DNA from: a virus
Taxonomy: Duplodnaviria > Caudoviricetes
IMG/VR virus record: IMGVR_UViG_3300007760_000655
Span: 1-61,299 of that record
Length of the DNA stretch: 61,299 bases
Direction: 5' to 3' (one strand)
Shown here: one piece after another, positions 19,198 through 59,909 of the stretch
Numbering within the stretch: the first letter of the stretch is position 1
Layout of the letters: every line of letters begins with the position of its first letter
Made by a program: the position numbers and the translations under genes
The notes under the pieces: generated by a model
What the model saw: the letters and a program-made list of their open reading frames with translations, nothing else
The model's database searches: none
Told to the model about the DNA's origin: nothing

Positions 19198-20029
19198 AGA
19201 TGTTTTCCTTTATGTGTTTTATGTCCGTAGCGGACAGGTCTCCCGGATCGAGTCCATCCGGTAATTGTAGTTTAGTTTCTTCGTTTATTATAAATGTATC
19301 TGTTAGTAATCTGTGTGCAGAGTGTTCGGCTTTTCTTCCTGCCTCATCTCCATCAAACATGGTATAAATAGTATGCACACCTTGGAGCTTCAAGGCTTCT
19401 AATAACTCTAGTTGTACATTATTAGCTCCGAGCACTGCTACTGCGTTTACTAAGCCTTTGTCGATTAAATTAAGCGCATCAAATATGCCTTCGACTAAAA
19501 TTACTGAGCCTTCAATAGGAGATACTATAGCTGGAAATAACGGCAGCTCCGCTCCAGAAGGTCTTATCAGGTACTTCGGGTGTGCATTACTATTTATATA
19601 TCTTCCGATAAAAGCTCGAATTTTACCTGTAATATCAGGTAAGGGGAATACTATTCTCCCTTCAAACTCTTTATCATGGATAAATGCCCCAAAACGGGCT
19701 AAAGTTCTTTTATCAATATCTCTGAAATGTCTAGTATAAGGTATTGCCCCGTCTGGTAGTATTAAACCTGTAGAAGCAGCTCGGATTGCTGAAATTTTAT
19801 CTTTCAGTCTTTTTACTCGAACATCTTGCCAGTTTCTATCAACATTAAAGAACTTAAAAACGTTCCCTTTAAAACCACAACTAAAGCAGTGGAACGTGCC
19901 TTCTGCTTGGTCAATATGCATAGAAGGATGATTATCCTCATGGTCTGGACTTAAACAACGTACAACGAAGTCCTGTCCTTTAGGAGTAAACGTAATATTA
20001 TGTTTTGTTAATATCTCACTTACTACCAT
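19163..20029 (-). CDS. pri: DNA primase (Zn finger + TOPRIM)
   Basis: C..H...CFSC zinc finger, VEGIFD, FDGDEAG. Confidence 0.93.
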   Translation of the reverse strand: MVVSEILTKHNITFTPKGQDFVVRCLSPDHEDNHPSMHIDQAEGTFHCFSCGFKGNVFKFFNVDRNWQDVRVKRLKDKISAIRAASTGLILPDGAIPYTRHFRDIDKRTLARFGAFIHDKEFEGRIVFPLPDITGKIRAFIGRYINSNAHPKYLIRPSGAELPLFPAIVSPIEGSVILVEGIFDALNLIDKGLVNAVAVLGANNVQLELLEALKLQGVHTIYTMFDGDEAGRKAEHSAHRLLTDTFIINEETKLQLPDGLDPGDLSATDIKHIKENIYGTTITQDSSS

Positions 20030-44541: not shown

Positions 44542-44862
44542 TTGACAAATAATCAAAAATCTGGTATAATCGGCGCGGCCGGCCACTTCGGCGCAGATGC
44601 GCACTTAAAAATCGGCGCTGCCGCGCACTTAGGCGCAGAGCGCGAATGATAATCATTCGCAAATGCGAATGAGAATCATTCTCATTTGGAGAGTTGAATT
44701 TAATTCAATCTAAGTTGAATATTTTTCTCTTGACAATGTCCCAAAATGTGGTATAATTATGTTATGGTCGGGAATCCGTCTGCCCGTCGGCGCAAAGTTG
44801 AATTGAATTCAAGTTAAGTTGAATATTTTTCTCTTGACAATCGTGGTGGTGTAGTGTAAAAT
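44542..44862 (+). promoter_or_regulatory. Three tandem sigma70 promoters in a repeat-rich non-coding region
   Basis: TTGACA..TATAAT at 44542-44570 and 44730-44757, TTGACA..TAAAAT at 44834-44862; ~45-bp direct repeat upstream of the last two. Confidence 0.7.
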
Positions 44863-44898
44863 CGGCGCGCAAATGCGAATGAGAATCATTCGCATTTG
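44642..44898. promoter_or_regulatory. Three Fur-box-like 19-bp palindromes
   Basis: GCGAATGATAATCATTCGC 44642-44660, GCGAATGAGAATCATTCTC 44665-44683, GCGAATGAGAATCATTCGC 44875-44893. Confidence 0.6.
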
Positions 44899-57502: not shown

Positions 57503-57752
57503 AGATACATTATGGATTTATACAAGTATAGTTGGAGCCTTATTAGGCGCAGCTTTCTTGTTTTATATAAAGGATACTAGAGTAGGTCTTTGGGGCTACT
57601 CACAGTTTGATAAAACAGTAGACTACTGTAGGGATTATTTAGGTTGGACATGGCTAAACCAAGACCCAGATGCTTGGAAGAAGGTAAACCCTAAGATAGC
57701 TGCAAAGATTGGGGAGTTGGAAAAGCGCCTCGAAGTGCTAGAGGAGAAGTAA
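57495..57752 (+). CDS. Hypothetical membrane-anchored protein
   Basis: N-terminal TM. Confidence 0.55.
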   Translation: MFEDTLWIYTSIVGALLGAAFLFYIKDTRVGLWGYSQFDKTVDYCRDYLGWTWLNQDPDAWKKVNPKIAAKIGELEKRLEVLEEK

Positions 57753-58525
57753 TGACTATATCCGAAATGAATTTAAAGCAAAGAAGTCTGCTCTTTGCAA
57801 GATTATCAGCAGATGCTTACGGAAAGGAGTCAGCAGTTAGGGAGGCAGTAAAAGAGTACGGATTTAAAGATATAGAATTTTATAATCTTCATGGAGCTCA
57901 AGCTTATCGATTTGAGAATAAAACTGATATTGTAATTGCCTGTCGTGGAACGCAACCTACAGAATTTAATGACTTAAAAGCAGACCTTAAAGCGTTCCCA
58001 GTAGTAGCTGAAACAGTCTCAAGAGTACATAGAGGCTTTAAAGCAGAGGTCGATGAACTTTGGCCTGAAGTTAGAAAAGATACTTTTACAAGTAAAAAGC
58101 TGTGGTTTTGTGGGCACTCTTTAGGAGCAGCAATGGCTACTATTATGGCTTCTCGTTGTATGGATGACCCAGCTTTAGCAAACCCAATTCAGTTATATAC
58201 TTATGGTTCACCACGAGTTGGTTGGCCTAAATATGTAAGGTCATTAAAAGTAGACCACATAAGGTGGCAAAATAATAATGATATAGTTACTCGTGTACCT
58301 TTAAAAATTATGAATTATAGGCATCATGGTAAATTACATTATATTAGTAGTACAGGAAAGATAAACTCTACTGGCAGGTCTAACTGGTTTAGTAGATTTA
58401 AAGATAGATTAAATGGTATGTGGTTAGGCTTAAAGAAGGGACAAATTGACAACTTCTCTGACCACGCTATGGTAGGTTATATTGACTATTTAAAGAAATG
58501 GAATGGTTTTTATAAAGAACTTTAA
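57752..58525 (+). CDS. Lipase class 3
   Basis: RGT, VHRGF, GHSLGAA, YGSPRVG, DIVTRVP, DH. Confidence 0.9.
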   Translation: MTISEMNLKQRSLLFARLSADAYGKESAVREAVKEYGFKDIEFYNLHGAQAYRFENKTDIVIACRGTQPTEFNDLKADLKAFPVVAETVSRVHRGFKAEVDELWPEVRKDTFTSKKLWFCGHSLGAAMATIMASRCMDDPALANPIQLYTYGSPRVGWPKYVRSLKVDHIRWQNNNDIVTRVPLKIMNYRHHGKLHYISSTGKINSTGRSNWFSRFKDRLNGMWLGLKKGQIDNFSDHAMVGYIDYLKKWNGFYKEL

Positions 58526-58526
58526 C

Positions 58527-58580
58527 TAGTACAACGAAGTACTAACACTTGAGACAACGAAGTCCTTTTATTAAAAAGGA
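58527..58580 (+). promoter_or_regulatory. ANTAR-type dual hexaloop RNA element overlapping an anti-SD hairpin
   Basis: TAGTAC-AACGAA-GTACTA, 8-nt linker, GAC-AACGAA-GTC; TCCTTTT pairs with AAAAGGA (SD). Confidence 0.7.
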
Positions 58581-58585
58581 ATAAA

Positions 58586-59587
58586 ATGAATAAATTCGAT
58601 TATGTATGGTTAGATGGCTATTTGCCTGAACCTAACCTAAGAAGTAAAGTAAAAATAGGTAAAACTGCAGATGTGTGGTCATTTGATGGCTCATCTACTA
58701 AGCAAGCTACAGGGGATAAATCAGATTGTATCTTAAACCCAGTAGCACATTATAAAACAATTGACAGAATTCGTCCTGACGCTACACGTACGGGTCCAGG
58801 GTTGGGTGGTACTTATGTAATGTGTGAAGTTTTAGACGCAAACTATGAGCCGCATGAAAGTAATACTAGAACATACTGTGAAGGTATAAGTGAGGATTGG
58901 TGGTTTGGGTTTGAACAAGAATACTTTATGTATAAGAATGGGCGCCCACTAGGGTGGCCTAGTGAGCTGAGAGGAGACCCAGAACCGCAAGGAGAGTACT
59001 ACTGTGGCGTCGGTACGGGTAATGTAGTGGGCAGAGCAATTGTTGATAGACATACTGAAGCTTGCATGAATGCAGGAATAGGTATAACAGGTACTAATGC
59101 TGAAGTTGCCTTAGGGCAATGGGAGTATCAGGTATTAGGTAAAGGAATAAAGGCGGGAGACGACTTATGGATGTCCCGTTATATTCTTATTAAGATTGCA
59201 GAGAAACACGGTGTAGAAATCAATTTCCACCCCAAACCTCAGCAAGGTGATTGGAATGGGTCTGGTATGCATACTAACTTCTCTAATAGTTTCATGAGGA
59301 ACGAAGGGGGAGAAATGGAACTGCTAAGCATGTGCCATAAATTAAGTTTAAACCACGAAGTAGCTATGGTATTATATGGTTCTAATAACAACTTAAGATT
59401 AACAGGGAAGCATGAAACCCAATCTATAGATAAATTTAGTTACGGAGTTAGTGACAGGGGAGCAAGTATACGTATCCCTGCTATAGTAGCTACTGAATGG
59501 AAAGGGTACTTAGAGGATAGGAGACCCGCTTCAAATGCAGACCCTTACAAAGTAATGCGACATATTGTCGAAGCATTAGAAGAATAG
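58586..59587 (+). CDS. glnII: Glutamine synthetase type II
   Basis: [54 protein letters not shown]; 333 aa. Confidence 0.93.
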
Positions 59588-59588
59588 A

Positions 59589-59909
59589 ATGACATTAACA
59601 AAACAAGCCGCACACGTAATGCTAGACCGACTTAAGAATAGAGGTTCGGGGTTAGGTATTCGAGTGGGGGTGAGAACCGCAGGATGTTCTGGGTATGAAT
59701 ATGCCTTAGAATATGTAGATTCACTAAATAGTGATGATACTGTATTTAAAAATAGAGGAGTAAATCTTATTGTTGATTCTAAAAGTCTATTGTACTTGTC
59801 AGGTACAGAATTAGACTATCAAAGACAGGGTCTTAATGAGGGGTTTGAATTTTACAACCCAAATGTTAAGGCAGCGTGCGGGTGCGGGGAGTCAGTAACA
59901 TTTAATTAA
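59589..59909 (+). CDS. iscA: Fe-S cluster assembly protein IscA
   Basis: GCSG, NPN...CGCGES. Confidence 0.93.

What the first reader, a model, noticed from the sequence alone, without database searches (positions are those of the whole stretch)
58527..58588. ANTAR-type dual-hexaloop switch gating translation of the phage glutamine synthetase
Seen: two hairpins with the identical loop AACGAA closed by C-G (58527-58544 and 58553-58564), 8 nt apart. The 3' arm of the second overlaps TCCTTTT (58563-58569), which can pair with the SD AAAAGGA (58574-58580); ATG is at 58586. Established: ANTAR proteins (NasR/NasT, EutV, AmiR) bind tandem hexaloops with A at position 1 and G at position 4, and many respond to nitrogen signals. 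No ANTAR gene is in the window. Inference: the phage plugs its GSII into a host nitrogen-sensing ANTAR regulator, whose binding would stabilise hairpin 2 and free the RBS. I know of no described phage example.
Basis: partly seen in the sequence, partly recalled or inferred. Interest (0 to 1): 0.85.

Follow-up and report, generated by a model that had tools for sequence, protein, structure and literature searches.

The report
ANTAR-like twin hairpins before phage GS
A marine T5-like phage has, just before its glutamine synthetase gene, two small RNA hairpins that look like the binding site of a bacterial nitrate-sensing regulator, but near-identical copies of the gene lack them, so whether they regulate anything is still open.

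Summary
The sequence is as described. There are two AACGAA hexaloop hairpins, 6 bp and 3 bp, 8 nt apart. A 7-bp hairpin buries the Shine-Dalgarno (SD) site and shares 2 nt with hairpin 2.

The generic ANTAR rule (A1/G4) is uninformative: it gives about 29 hits per shuffled window.

I collected genuine dual-hexaloop leaders next to ANTAR genes in gammaproteobacteria. All sit before nitrate/nitrite-assimilation genes. The phage element matches all 11 invariant columns of their alignment, including the commonest P2 stem, GAC/GTC. Covariance models built from those leaders alone rank it top in the window, but only marginally: 16.9 bits (E 0.02) and 12.7 bits (E 0.4). Genuine leaders score 19.6 bits or more.

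Against a regulatory role:
- No terminator follows the hairpins.
- No ANTAR gene is in the 61-kb record, and the host is unknown.
- 0 of 153 homologous GS leaders carry the motif.
- Contigs from two other studies join a ~99%-identical GS to the lipase gene by 8 letters in place of the 66-nt leader.
- The closest backbone relative lacks GS altogether.

Verdict: most likely a lineage-specific leader created at a recombination junction, acting in cis (0.42). A genuine NasT/NasR-type translational switch remains a live, testable rival (about 0.3).

The parts
57752..58525 (+). Class-3 lipase gene, the upstream cistron; stop codon TAA at 58523-58525
   Evidence: ORF. Pfam Lipase_3, E 3.7e-18.
58526..58585 (+). 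60-nt lipase-GS intergenic leader. It is the only gap of 25 nt or more in the co-directional gene array from 49.3 to 61.3 kb.
   Evidence: Intergenic list; sequence.
58527..58544 (+). Hairpin 1 (P1-like): 6-bp stem, loop AACGAA, closing C-G. Read as DNA it also spells GTA-N8-TAC at 58529-58542.
   Evidence: -4.7 kcal/mol alone; occupancy 0.64. for GTA-N8-TAC.
58553..58564 (+). Hairpin 2 (P2-like): GAC / AACGAA / GTC, 3-bp stem
   Evidence: -0.7 kcal/mol; occupancy 0.05. The same stem, GAC/GTC, occurs in 12 of 22 genuine P2 hairpins.
58528..58564 (+). Span matched by the covariance models built from genuine ANTAR-gene-adjacent leaders
   Evidence: R1: 16.9 bits, E 0.022. R2: 12.7 bits, E 0.43.
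58563..58580 (+). SD-sequestering hairpin: anti-SD TCCTTTT (58563-58569), loop ATTA, SD AAAAGGA (58574-58580). It shares 58563-58564 with the 3' arm of hairpin 2.
   Evidence: -4.9 kcal/mol; SD unpaired probability 0.07.
58517..58582 (+). 66-nt segment replaced by 8 other letters in sibling contigs that carry a ~99%-identical GS
   Evidence: joint 58516->58583 in runs X5 and X7 (tables 5, 5c, 8).
58586..59587 (+). Glutamine synthetase gene, 333 aa
   Evidence: Pfam Gln-synt_C (E 5e-18) and Gln-synt_N (E 1.6e-8). 463 viral and 598 or more metagenomic relatives.
59589..59909 (+). IscA-like Fe-S assembly gene. In the closest backbone relative it follows the lipase gene directly.
   Evidence: Pfam Fe-S_biosyn. 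L109 gene order.

Best explanation
The 60-nt leader is a lineage-specific piece of DNA. It arose at the junction where a mobile GS cassette was recombined in between the lipase and IscA genes of a marine T5-like phage. It works in cis, without a dedicated protein.

Proposed mechanism:
- The leader supplies GS with its own Shine-Dalgarno site (AAAGGA). This uncouples GS translation from the lipase cistron.
- The 7-bp SD hairpin (-4.9 kcal/mol) moderately dampens initiation.
- Hairpin 1, which starts one base after the lipase stop codon, acts at most as an intercistronic structural or stability element.
- The second 'hairpin' exists because the 10-nt top of hairpin 1 was duplicated 23 nt downstream. 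That unit already carries two complementary flanking bases on each side.

On this reading the likeness to ANTAR targets is a coincidence of a low-information motif.

Shown: the structures and their energies, the insertion and indel history, and the lack of conservation. Inferred: that no trans-acting factor is involved.
For: The GS plus leader is an insertion.
- The closest backbone relative, L109 (lipase 86%, IscA 92% identical), has lipase followed by an 11-nt spacer and then IscA.
- 0 of 80 lipase-bearing loci hold GS within the fetched flanks.

The leader is not part of the shared GS module.
- In X5 (record 17) and X7 (record 25), from two studies, contigs run from a lipase allele into GS. 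The lipase part has 95 differences over 617 nt (X5) and 51 over 323 nt (X7).
- The GS part has only 2 differences over 113 nt (X5) and 4 over 506 nt (X7). The two parts are joined by 8 letters in place of 58517-58582.
- The depth bin 58510-58570 is the lowest bin in X5 and X12 and lies below both neighbouring bins in X5, X7 and X12. In X10 several bins have no depth at all (table 2).

The motif is not conserved.
- 0 of 153 evaluable GS-homolog leaders have an AACGAA hairpin. 4 of 153 have any A1/G4 tandem.
- 72 of 153 have an upstream ORF ending within 15 nt of the GS start.
- BLAST of the leader against 2.27 Mb of fetched loci finds no relative. Hairpin 1 has no exact copy in viral contigs.

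Other points.
- The generic ANTAR rule occurs about 29 times per shuffled window.
- The SD-region accessibility of GS ranks 12th of 69 genes, so it is not an outlier.
- The covariance scores are marginal and depend on the model.
Against: This reading leaves several coincidences unexplained.
- The element matches 11 of 11 invariant columns of genuine gammaproteobacterial ANTAR leaders, plus their commonest P2 stem.
- It is the single top hit of both independent models in the window. R1 gives 16.9 bits against a next-best 7.0. The best background scores are 9.9 and 9.0 bits in 197 kb of related phage DNA searched with filters off.
- It lies on the sense strand, directly before a nitrogen-assimilation gene.
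- The 3' arm of its P2 overlaps the repressive helix, just as P2 overlaps the terminator in genuine leaders.
- The refined descriptor hits in only 27 of 1000 shuffles of the whole window.
- The leader-bearing form leaves some depth in runs from other studies. X12 record 10 covers 58340-58540 with 1 difference, so it is not an assembly artefact.
Confidence: 0.42

Rival explanations
1. The element is a genuine ANTAR-type target. A host NasT/NasR-like regulator, active when nitrate or nitrite is being assimilated, binds the two hexaloops as a dimer and stabilises P2. This removes U58563 and C58564 from the anti-SD helix and frees the SD, turning GS translation on. It would be antitermination logic moved to translation, in a phage auxiliary gene.
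For: - It meets the published minimal definition (PMC3369931 passages; sequence).
- I fetched 40 regions round ANTAR genes. Genuine leaders from them show closing C-G pairs, loops AA[ACT]G.., and a GAC/GTC P2 stem in 12 of 22. AACGAA occurs once as a P1 loop and never as a P2 loop.
- The phage element matches 11 of 11 invariant columns.
- It is the top hit of models R1 (E 0.022) and R2 (E 0.43), neither trained on it.
- Forcing P2 costs 2.3 kcal/mol and raises SD accessibility from 0.07 to 0.42.
- The phage polymerase is nearest to those of T5-like phages of enterobacteria. In the sampled class, 56 of 201 genomes carry an ANTAR protein.
- ANTAR RNA hits before glutamine-synthesis genes are reported in bacteria (PMC3369931 section 10 passage).
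- Translational control by ANTAR RNAs that overlap the RBS is reported in actinobacteria (PMC8164766 passages).
Against: - The scores lie below all 35 genuine leaders, which score 19.6 bits or more. They fall with the broader model.
- P2 loop positions 5-6 are AA. This is seen in 0 of 22 genuine P2 loops, and C at position 6 is nearly invariant.
- A fourth P2 pair would be an A-C mismatch.
- No terminator follows.
- P2 and the anti-SD helix share only 2 nt.
- No ANTAR domain is found in the 61-kb record, which is about half the genome. The host is unknown.
- The motif is absent from 153 of 153 homologous leaders and from a ~99%-identical GS allele.
- The 35 sampled genuine leaders precede nitrate/nitrite genes, none a GS.
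- A strict canonical pattern found 28 viral stretches. 27 of them have no T-run, and none looks like a leader.
Confidence: 0.3
2. The two identical 10-13-nt units are the operator of some other dimeric factor. It could be encoded by the phage (perhaps in the missing half of the genome) or by the host. It could bind the RNA hairpins, or bind the DNA direct repeat 23 bp apart. Either way it would control GS expression.
For: - The exact 10-nt direct repeat extends to 12 of 13 nt.
- This is the only sizeable intergenic gap in a 12-kb gene array.
- The leader is an orphan with no relatives, as expected for a lineage-specific operator.
Against: - There is no candidate protein.
- The unit has no second site elsewhere in an intergenic region of the window. 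The only other exact copy, at 19962, lies inside the primase gene.
- This reading does not explain the match to the ANTAR invariants.
Confidence: 0.15
3. Read as DNA, hairpin 1 is an NtcA-type box, GTA-N8-TAC. The consensus is recalled, not taken from any call. It would drive a nitrogen-regulated promoter for GS, as for cyanobacterial glnA.
For: - GTA-N8-TAC lies at 58529-58542.
- It is the only one of 29 such boxes in the window that lies between genes.
Against: - 29 boxes is about what base composition alone would give (my own estimate was about 21).
- No sigma-70-like promoter is called in the leader.
- A start about 41 nt from the box centre would leave almost no 5' UTR.
- The phage's replication genes and polymerase are T5-like, so the host is probably not a cyanobacterium.
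Confidence: 0.03

Closest known systems
NasT/NasR-type nas operon leaders of Gammaproteobacteria (dual hexaloop antiterminators)
   Same: - Two adjacent hairpins with six-nt loops.
- Closing C-G pairs, with A1, A2 and G4 in both loops.
- P2 stem GAC/GTC.
- A linker inside the natural range of 1-16 nt.
- The 3' arm of P2 is shared with a repressive helix.
- A nitrogen-assimilation gene lies downstream.
   Different: - No intrinsic terminator. 27 of 28 descriptor hits near ANTAR genes have a T-run.
- The repressive helix hides the SD instead.
- Loop positions 5-6 are AA, not GC or AC.
- The stems are AT-rich.
- The position is intercistronic, inside a phage operon.
- The downstream gene is GS, not a nitrate or nitrite gene.
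- The model score is below every genuine example.
[quoted passage not shown]
   Same: The minimal definition is met: stems of 3 bp or more, A1/G4 hexaloops, and a linker within 5-12 nt. Only G4 is contacted base-specifically, so AACGAA is compatible.
   Different: - EutV acts by antitermination in Firmicutes and responds to ethanolamine.
- No cognate two-component system is known here.
Actinobacterial ANTAR-target RNAs that overlap the RBS or start codon (PMC8164766, passages read)
   Same: An ANTAR-type dual stem-loop sits next to the ribosome-binding site and acts on translation rather than termination.
   Different: - There, protein binding represses translation.
- Here, the geometry predicts activation, by freeing a pre-sequestered SD.
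- The phylum differs, and those genomes are GC-rich.
Ordinary SD-sequestering leader hairpins and intercistronic stem-loops in phage operons
   Same: A 7-bp hairpin of -4.9 kcal/mol covers the SD, and a stable hairpin follows the upstream stop codon. The SD accessibility lies within the range of other genes in this phage (rank 12 of 69).
   Different: Ordinary leaders do not usually carry two identical hexaloops that match the invariant positions of a known protein-binding motif.

Membership tests
ANTAR-target RNA (dual hexaloop motif) | Two adjacent stem-loops, each with at least 3 bp and a six-nt loop | tested here: met
   Stems of 6 and 3 bp, both with six-nt loops. Hairpin 2 is thermodynamically marginal at -0.7 kcal/mol.
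ANTAR-target RNA (dual hexaloop motif) | A at loop position 1 and G at position 4 in both loops | tested here: met
   Both loops are AACGAA. The criterion comes from PMC3369931 passages.
ANTAR-target RNA (dual hexaloop motif) | Short linker (5-12 nt in the E. faecalis eut leaders; 3 or 14 nt impair induction) | tested here: met
   The linker is 8 nt (criterion). Genuine gammaproteobacterial examples have linkers of 1-16 nt.
ANTAR-target RNA (dual hexaloop motif) | P2 mutually exclusive with an intrinsic terminator | tested here: not met
   No terminator-like site is called in the leader, and no T-run follows the hairpins. 27 of 28 descriptor hits near ANTAR genes have a T-run.
ANTAR-target RNA (dual hexaloop motif) | P2 mutually exclusive with some repressive helix (generalised form of the feature) | tested here: met
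   The 3' arm of P2 shares 58563-58564 with the anti-SD helix. Forcing P2 costs 2.3 kcal/mol and raises the SD unpaired probability from 0.07 to 0.42.
ANTAR-target RNA (dual hexaloop motif) | Significant score against a covariance model of genuine leaders | tested here: inconclusive
   - R1 (19 leaders): 16.9 bits, E 0.022, top hit in the window, next-best 7.0 bits.
- R2 (35 leaders): 12.7 bits, E 0.43, still the top hit.
- Genuine leaders score 19.6-48.4 bits.
- No Rfam family matched.
ANTAR-target RNA (dual hexaloop motif) | Invariant positions of gammaproteobacterial nas leaders | tested here: met
   11 of 11 invariant columns of alignment A1 are matched. The one nearly invariant column, C at P2 loop position 6, is not matched.
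ANTAR-target RNA (dual hexaloop motif) | Cognate ANTAR-domain protein in the same system | tested here: not met
   PF03861 has no match in the 61-kb record, which is about 50% complete. The host is unknown, so host carriage cannot be tested. In the sampled class, 56 of 201 genomes have one.
ANTAR-target RNA (dual hexaloop motif) | Conservation of the motif in homologous leaders | tested here: not met
   0 of 153 GS-homolog leaders carry it. Sibling contigs with a ~99%-identical GS lack the leader.
ANTAR-target RNA (dual hexaloop motif) | Protein binding and loop-dependent regulation | not testable with these tools
   This needs EMSA or MST and reporter assays.
NtcA-activated promoter | GTA-N8-TAC box about 22 nt upstream of a -10 box, in a cyanobacterial host (consensus recalled, from no call) | tested here: not met
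   The box is present at 58529-58542. No promoter is called in the leader, and the phage is T5-like.
Intrinsic terminator | GC-rich hairpin followed by a T-run | tested here: not met
   None is called in 58526-58585 on either strand.

The most novel reading that the evidence does not exclude
A lytic marine T5-like phage has wired its acquired glutamine synthetase to the host's nitrate-assimilation regulator. It would do this through a NasT/NasR-type dual-hexaloop RNA that works as a translational ON switch, with P2 competing against an anti-SD helix rather than a terminator. That would be the first ANTAR target in a virus and the first ANTAR element that activates translation.
Probability: 0.3. 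Interest if true: 0.85.

Novelty: new variant of a known kind. Interest (0 to 1): 0.55.

Why it matters
If real, it would show three things.
- Phages can copy not only riboswitches but also the small, low-information binding sites of host RNA-binding regulators. That would let them time an auxiliary metabolic gene to the host's nitrogen state.
- ANTAR control can be rebuilt on a ribosome-binding site to switch translation on.
- Nitrate sensing would be linked to viral reprogramming of ammonium assimilation in the sea.

If it is not real, the case is a caution. The A1/G4 dual-hexaloop rule gives dozens of hits per 60 kb and needs family-specific models plus conservation before it can be trusted.

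In either case the locus documents a GS cassette that moves between phage backbones with three coexisting junction forms.

Tried and rejected
- **Rfam.** There was no match at gathering thresholds for the whole window. At E up to 10 on 58400-58700 only chance-level mir-5 and RAGATH-8 matches appeared.
- **Exact tandem 10-mer pattern, viral contigs.** 25 loci, all unrelated tandem repeats.
- **Exact tandem 10-mer pattern, genome contigs.** All the rows I could read were tandem arrays, and part of that output was cut.
- **Exact hairpin 1 in viral contigs.** 0 hits.
- **BLAST of the leader against all fetched loci.** Nothing beyond 13-19-nt chance matches.
- **Canonical nas-leader pattern in viral contigs.**
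  - 28 stretches were found, and 27 have no T-run.
  - Most lie in GC-rich sequence, and several repeat the same stretch.
  - I judged them to be coding matches, but did not verify this by frame analysis.
- **NtcA-box reading.** Rejected on phage type and the lack of a promoter.
- **Background searches with default filters.**
  - The best scores were 14.9 and 13.9 bits.
  - These are not valid controls, because the same filters drop the window's own 16.9-bit hit.
  - I replaced them with filters-off searches of 97.7 and 99.5 kb.
- **Expression.** No RNA holder is listed among the 20 runs found.
- **Literature.**
  - The searches listed no paper on an ANTAR target in a phage (listings only).
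  - The search listed papers on phage-encoded GS as an auxiliary metabolic gene (listings only).
  - Supplementary seed alignments of the ANTAR papers could not be opened. The models used here are therefore my own, not the published ones.
Full report
**What is there.**
- The window is a complete IMG/VR virus record of 61.3 kb, estimated about 50% complete.
- Between a class-3 lipase gene (57752-58525) and a 333-aa glutamine synthetase (GS) gene (58586-59587; Pfam Gln-synt_C and Gln-synt_N) lies a 60-nt spacer.
  - Hairpin 1 is 58527-58544 (TAGTAC/AACGAA/GTACTA).
  - An 8-nt linker follows.
  - Hairpin 2 is 58553-58564 (GAC/AACGAA/GTC).
  - TCCTTTT (58563-58569) is complementary to the Shine-Dalgarno (SD) stretch AAAAGGA (58574-58580).
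  - The ATG is at 58586.
- The two hairpin tops are an exact 10-nt direct repeat.
- The spacer is the only gap of 25 nt or more in the co-directional gene array from 49.3 to 61.3 kb.

**Structure.**
- The minimum-free-energy fold holds hairpin 1 and the SD hairpin, not hairpin 2.
- Folded alone, the energies are -4.7 kcal/mol (hairpin 1), -0.7 (hairpin 2) and -4.9 (SD hairpin).
- In the ensemble the SD is unpaired with probability 0.07 and hairpin 2 has 5% occupancy.
- Forcing hairpin 2 costs 2.3 kcal/mol and raises SD accessibility to 0.42. The proposed switch is therefore energetically possible, though only partial.
- The leader as a whole folds only slightly better than shuffles (z = -1.85).
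- The SD-region accessibility of GS ranks 12th of 69 genes in the window, so it is not exceptional.

**Chance, by the generic rule.**
- I used tandem A1/G4 hexaloops with stems of 3 bp or more and gaps up to 20 nt.
- These occur 38 times in the window, against 28.9 +/- 5.5 in 200 dinucleotide shuffles. 16 of the 200 shuffles reach 38.
- A tandem with identical loops arises in 37 of 200 shuffles. One with stems summing to 9 bp or more arises in 9 of 200.
- The textbook ANTAR rule alone therefore carries almost no information.
- Rfam has no matching family.

**Comparison with genuine leaders.**
- ANTAR domains (PF03861) are found in 56 of 201 sampled genomes of the class of a marine BD1-7 gammaproteobacterium.
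- I fetched regions of up to 18 kb round 40 of these ANTAR genes.
- I applied a descriptor read off the first examples: C-AA.G..-G twice, with stems of 3 bp or more.
  - It hits 28 times in 20 of the 40 loci.
  - 27 of the 28 hits are followed by a T-run.
- Among 22 clean examples the P2 stem is GAC/GTC in 12. The loops are AA[ACTG]G.., with AACGAA and AATGAA each occurring once as a P1 loop.
- The ORFs downstream of 35 model-confirmed leaders are:
  - NMT1_2 nitrate-binding proteins: 22
  - NirB-like reductases: 4
  - MFS transporters: 3
  - porin-like proteins: 3
  - unassigned: 3
  - glutamine synthetase: none
- These are bona fide nitrate-assimilation leaders.
- The same descriptor hits the phage window exactly once on both strands, at the GS leader.
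- It hits in 27 of 1000 shuffles.
- It hits none of the 240 fetched phage and metagenome loci that had not been selected for the 10-mer itself.

**Covariance models.**
- R1 was built from 19 terminator-proximal genuine leaders, without the phage sequence.
  - With filters off, the GS leader is the best hit in the window: 16.9 bits, E 0.022. These E-values are rough. The next-best hits score 7.0 and 6.0 bits.
  - Its alignment matches all 11 invariant columns of the training alignment. It misses the one nearly invariant column, C at P2 loop position 6.
- R2 was rebuilt from the 35 hits with E up to 0.06 in the bacterial loci. It still ranks the leader first, but at 12.7 bits, E 0.43.
- Genuine leaders score 19.6-48.4 bits. 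The 16 that were not used for training score 19.6-33.5 bits.
- With filters off, 197 kb of related phage DNA gives at most 9.9 and 9.0 bits.
- Two larger background searches with default filters are void as controls. Those filters also drop the window's own hit.
- The resemblance is therefore real and specific to this one place, but statistically marginal and model-dependent.
- The main penalty is AA at loop positions 5-6, above all in P2. In antiterminators those bases pair within the terminator. A translational version would not need them, but that is an argument, not evidence.

**History of the locus.**
- PHROGs annotation finds a family-A DNA polymerase, a split NAD-dependent ligase, SbcCD, a D5-like regulator and a class Ia ribonucleotide reductase.
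- The nearest cultured polymerases, about 46% identical, belong to T5-like phages of enterobacteria with genomes of 104-122 kb.
- This makes the record a distant marine T5-like phage with a probably gammaproteobacterial host. That host assignment is an inference.
- The closest backbone relative, L109 (lipase 86%, IscA 92% identical), has lipase, an 11-nt spacer and then IscA, with no GS.
- 0 of 80 lipase-bearing loci carry GS within the fetched flanks.
- Of 160 GS-homolog loci, 153 could be evaluated.
  - Seven were dropped: four had too little upstream sequence, two had no start codon, and one was cut at the 5' end.
  - 0 of 153 have an AACGAA hairpin within 100 nt upstream.
  - 4 of 153 have any A1/G4 tandem.
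  - 72 have an upstream ORF ending within 15 nt of the GS start.
- No relative in these collections exceeds 76% GS identity.
- Public runs do hold closer relatives.
  - Contigs in X5 and X7, from two studies, run from a lipase allele into GS. The lipase part has 95 differences over 617 nt (X5) and 51 over 323 nt (X7).
  - The GS part has only 2 differences over 113 nt (X5) and 4 over 506 nt (X7). The two parts are joined by 8 letters (TAAATTAA) in place of 58517-58582.
  - Other contigs in the same runs join 58483 to 59588, that is lipase straight to IscA.
  - The depth bin over the hairpins (58510-58570) is the lowest bin in X5 and X12 and lies below both neighbouring bins in X5, X7 and X12. 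In X10 several bins have no depth at all.
  - X12 record 10 covers hairpin 1 with a single difference, so the leader-bearing form is real and recurs.
- Three junction forms therefore coexist, and the leader lies outside the ~99%-identical GS block.
- It has no detectable relative anywhere I could search.

**Weighing.**
- For a real ANTAR-type switch:
  - the 11 of 11 invariant positions and the P2 stem;
  - the unique top model hit;
  - the sense-strand position directly before a nitrogen-assimilation gene;
  - the overlap of P2 with the repressive helix;
  - a plausible host class in which 28% of sampled genomes carry ANTAR proteins.
- Published precedents, read as passages:
  - ANTAR hits before glutamine-synthesis genes (PMC3369931);
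  - translational ANTAR control at the RBS (PMC8164766).
- Against it:
  - marginal scores, below every genuine leader;
  - atypical loop positions 5-6;
  - only 2 shared nucleotides between P2 and the anti-SD helix;
  - no terminator;
  - no ANTAR gene in the available half of the genome and no known host;
  - no conservation at any distance;
  - a leaderless sibling allele;
  - no convincing canonical leader among the 28 viral stretches found with a strict pattern;
  - the large number of sequences that a scan like this looks through.
- The duplication of a 10-nt unit that already carries two complementary flanking bases on each side also explains cheaply why there are 'two hairpins with the same loop'.
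- I put the cis-only junction-leader reading first at 0.42. The ANTAR switch follows at about 0.30, another dimeric factor at 0.15, and an NtcA-type DNA box at 0.03. The last is a recalled consensus and sits badly with a T5-like phage.

**Novelty.**
- Searches of the paper library (listings only) returned nothing on ANTAR targets in phages.
- Phage-encoded GS as an auxiliary metabolic gene is already described (listing).
- If the switch is real, it is a new variant of a known kind: ANTAR recognition moved to a viral gene and to translational activation.
- The experiments that would settle it are simple and are listed under next steps.

Noticed in passing
window 44645-44657, 44668-44680, 44878-44890: Three Fur-box-like palindromes (GCGAATGA[T/G]AATCATTC) lie just downstream of consensus sigma-70 promoters at 44542 and 44834. 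The phage also carries IscA, IscU and a FecR-domain protein. This may point to iron-responsive control of an early region. The Fur-box consensus is recalled.
   Followed up: no
window 15031-44834: There are 14 matches to the sigma-70 consensus pattern TTGACA-N16-18-TA[TA]AAT, 12 of them between 27.9 and 44.9 kb. This recalls the strong promoters of T5-like phages.
   Followed up: no
window 28.9-29.5, 30.6-31.15, 38.8-39.8 and 41.4-41.8 kb: Long stretches without ORFs, some of them GC-rich. They hold no tRNA and no Rfam match. Their nature is unknown.
   Followed up: no
window 57900-59700, from runs X5 and X7: Three junction forms coexist in seawater metagenomes: lipase-leader-GS-IscA, lipase-8 letters-GS, and lipase-IscA without GS. 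The GS block is ~99% identical while the lipase alleles differ at about 15% of positions, so GS moves as a cassette between backbones.
   Followed up: partly
L111-L139, downstream of the lipase stop codon: Many lipase-bearing relatives (63-71% identical) carry TGTATAAATA directly after the lipase stop codon. This is reminiscent of the T4-type late promoter TATAAATA (recalled). The lipase cassette therefore also sits in phages with a different promoter type.
   Followed up: no
L275, L290, L308, L321, L350, L385 and other loci: Flavobacteriales and other Bacteroidota MAGs hold tandem arrays of a 14-nt unit, (A/T)ACAACG(A/T/C)AGTTC. They are unrelated to the phage leader.
   Followed up: no
L398, L408, L418: Some genuine nas leaders carry three hexaloop hairpins in a row rather than two.
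   Followed up: no
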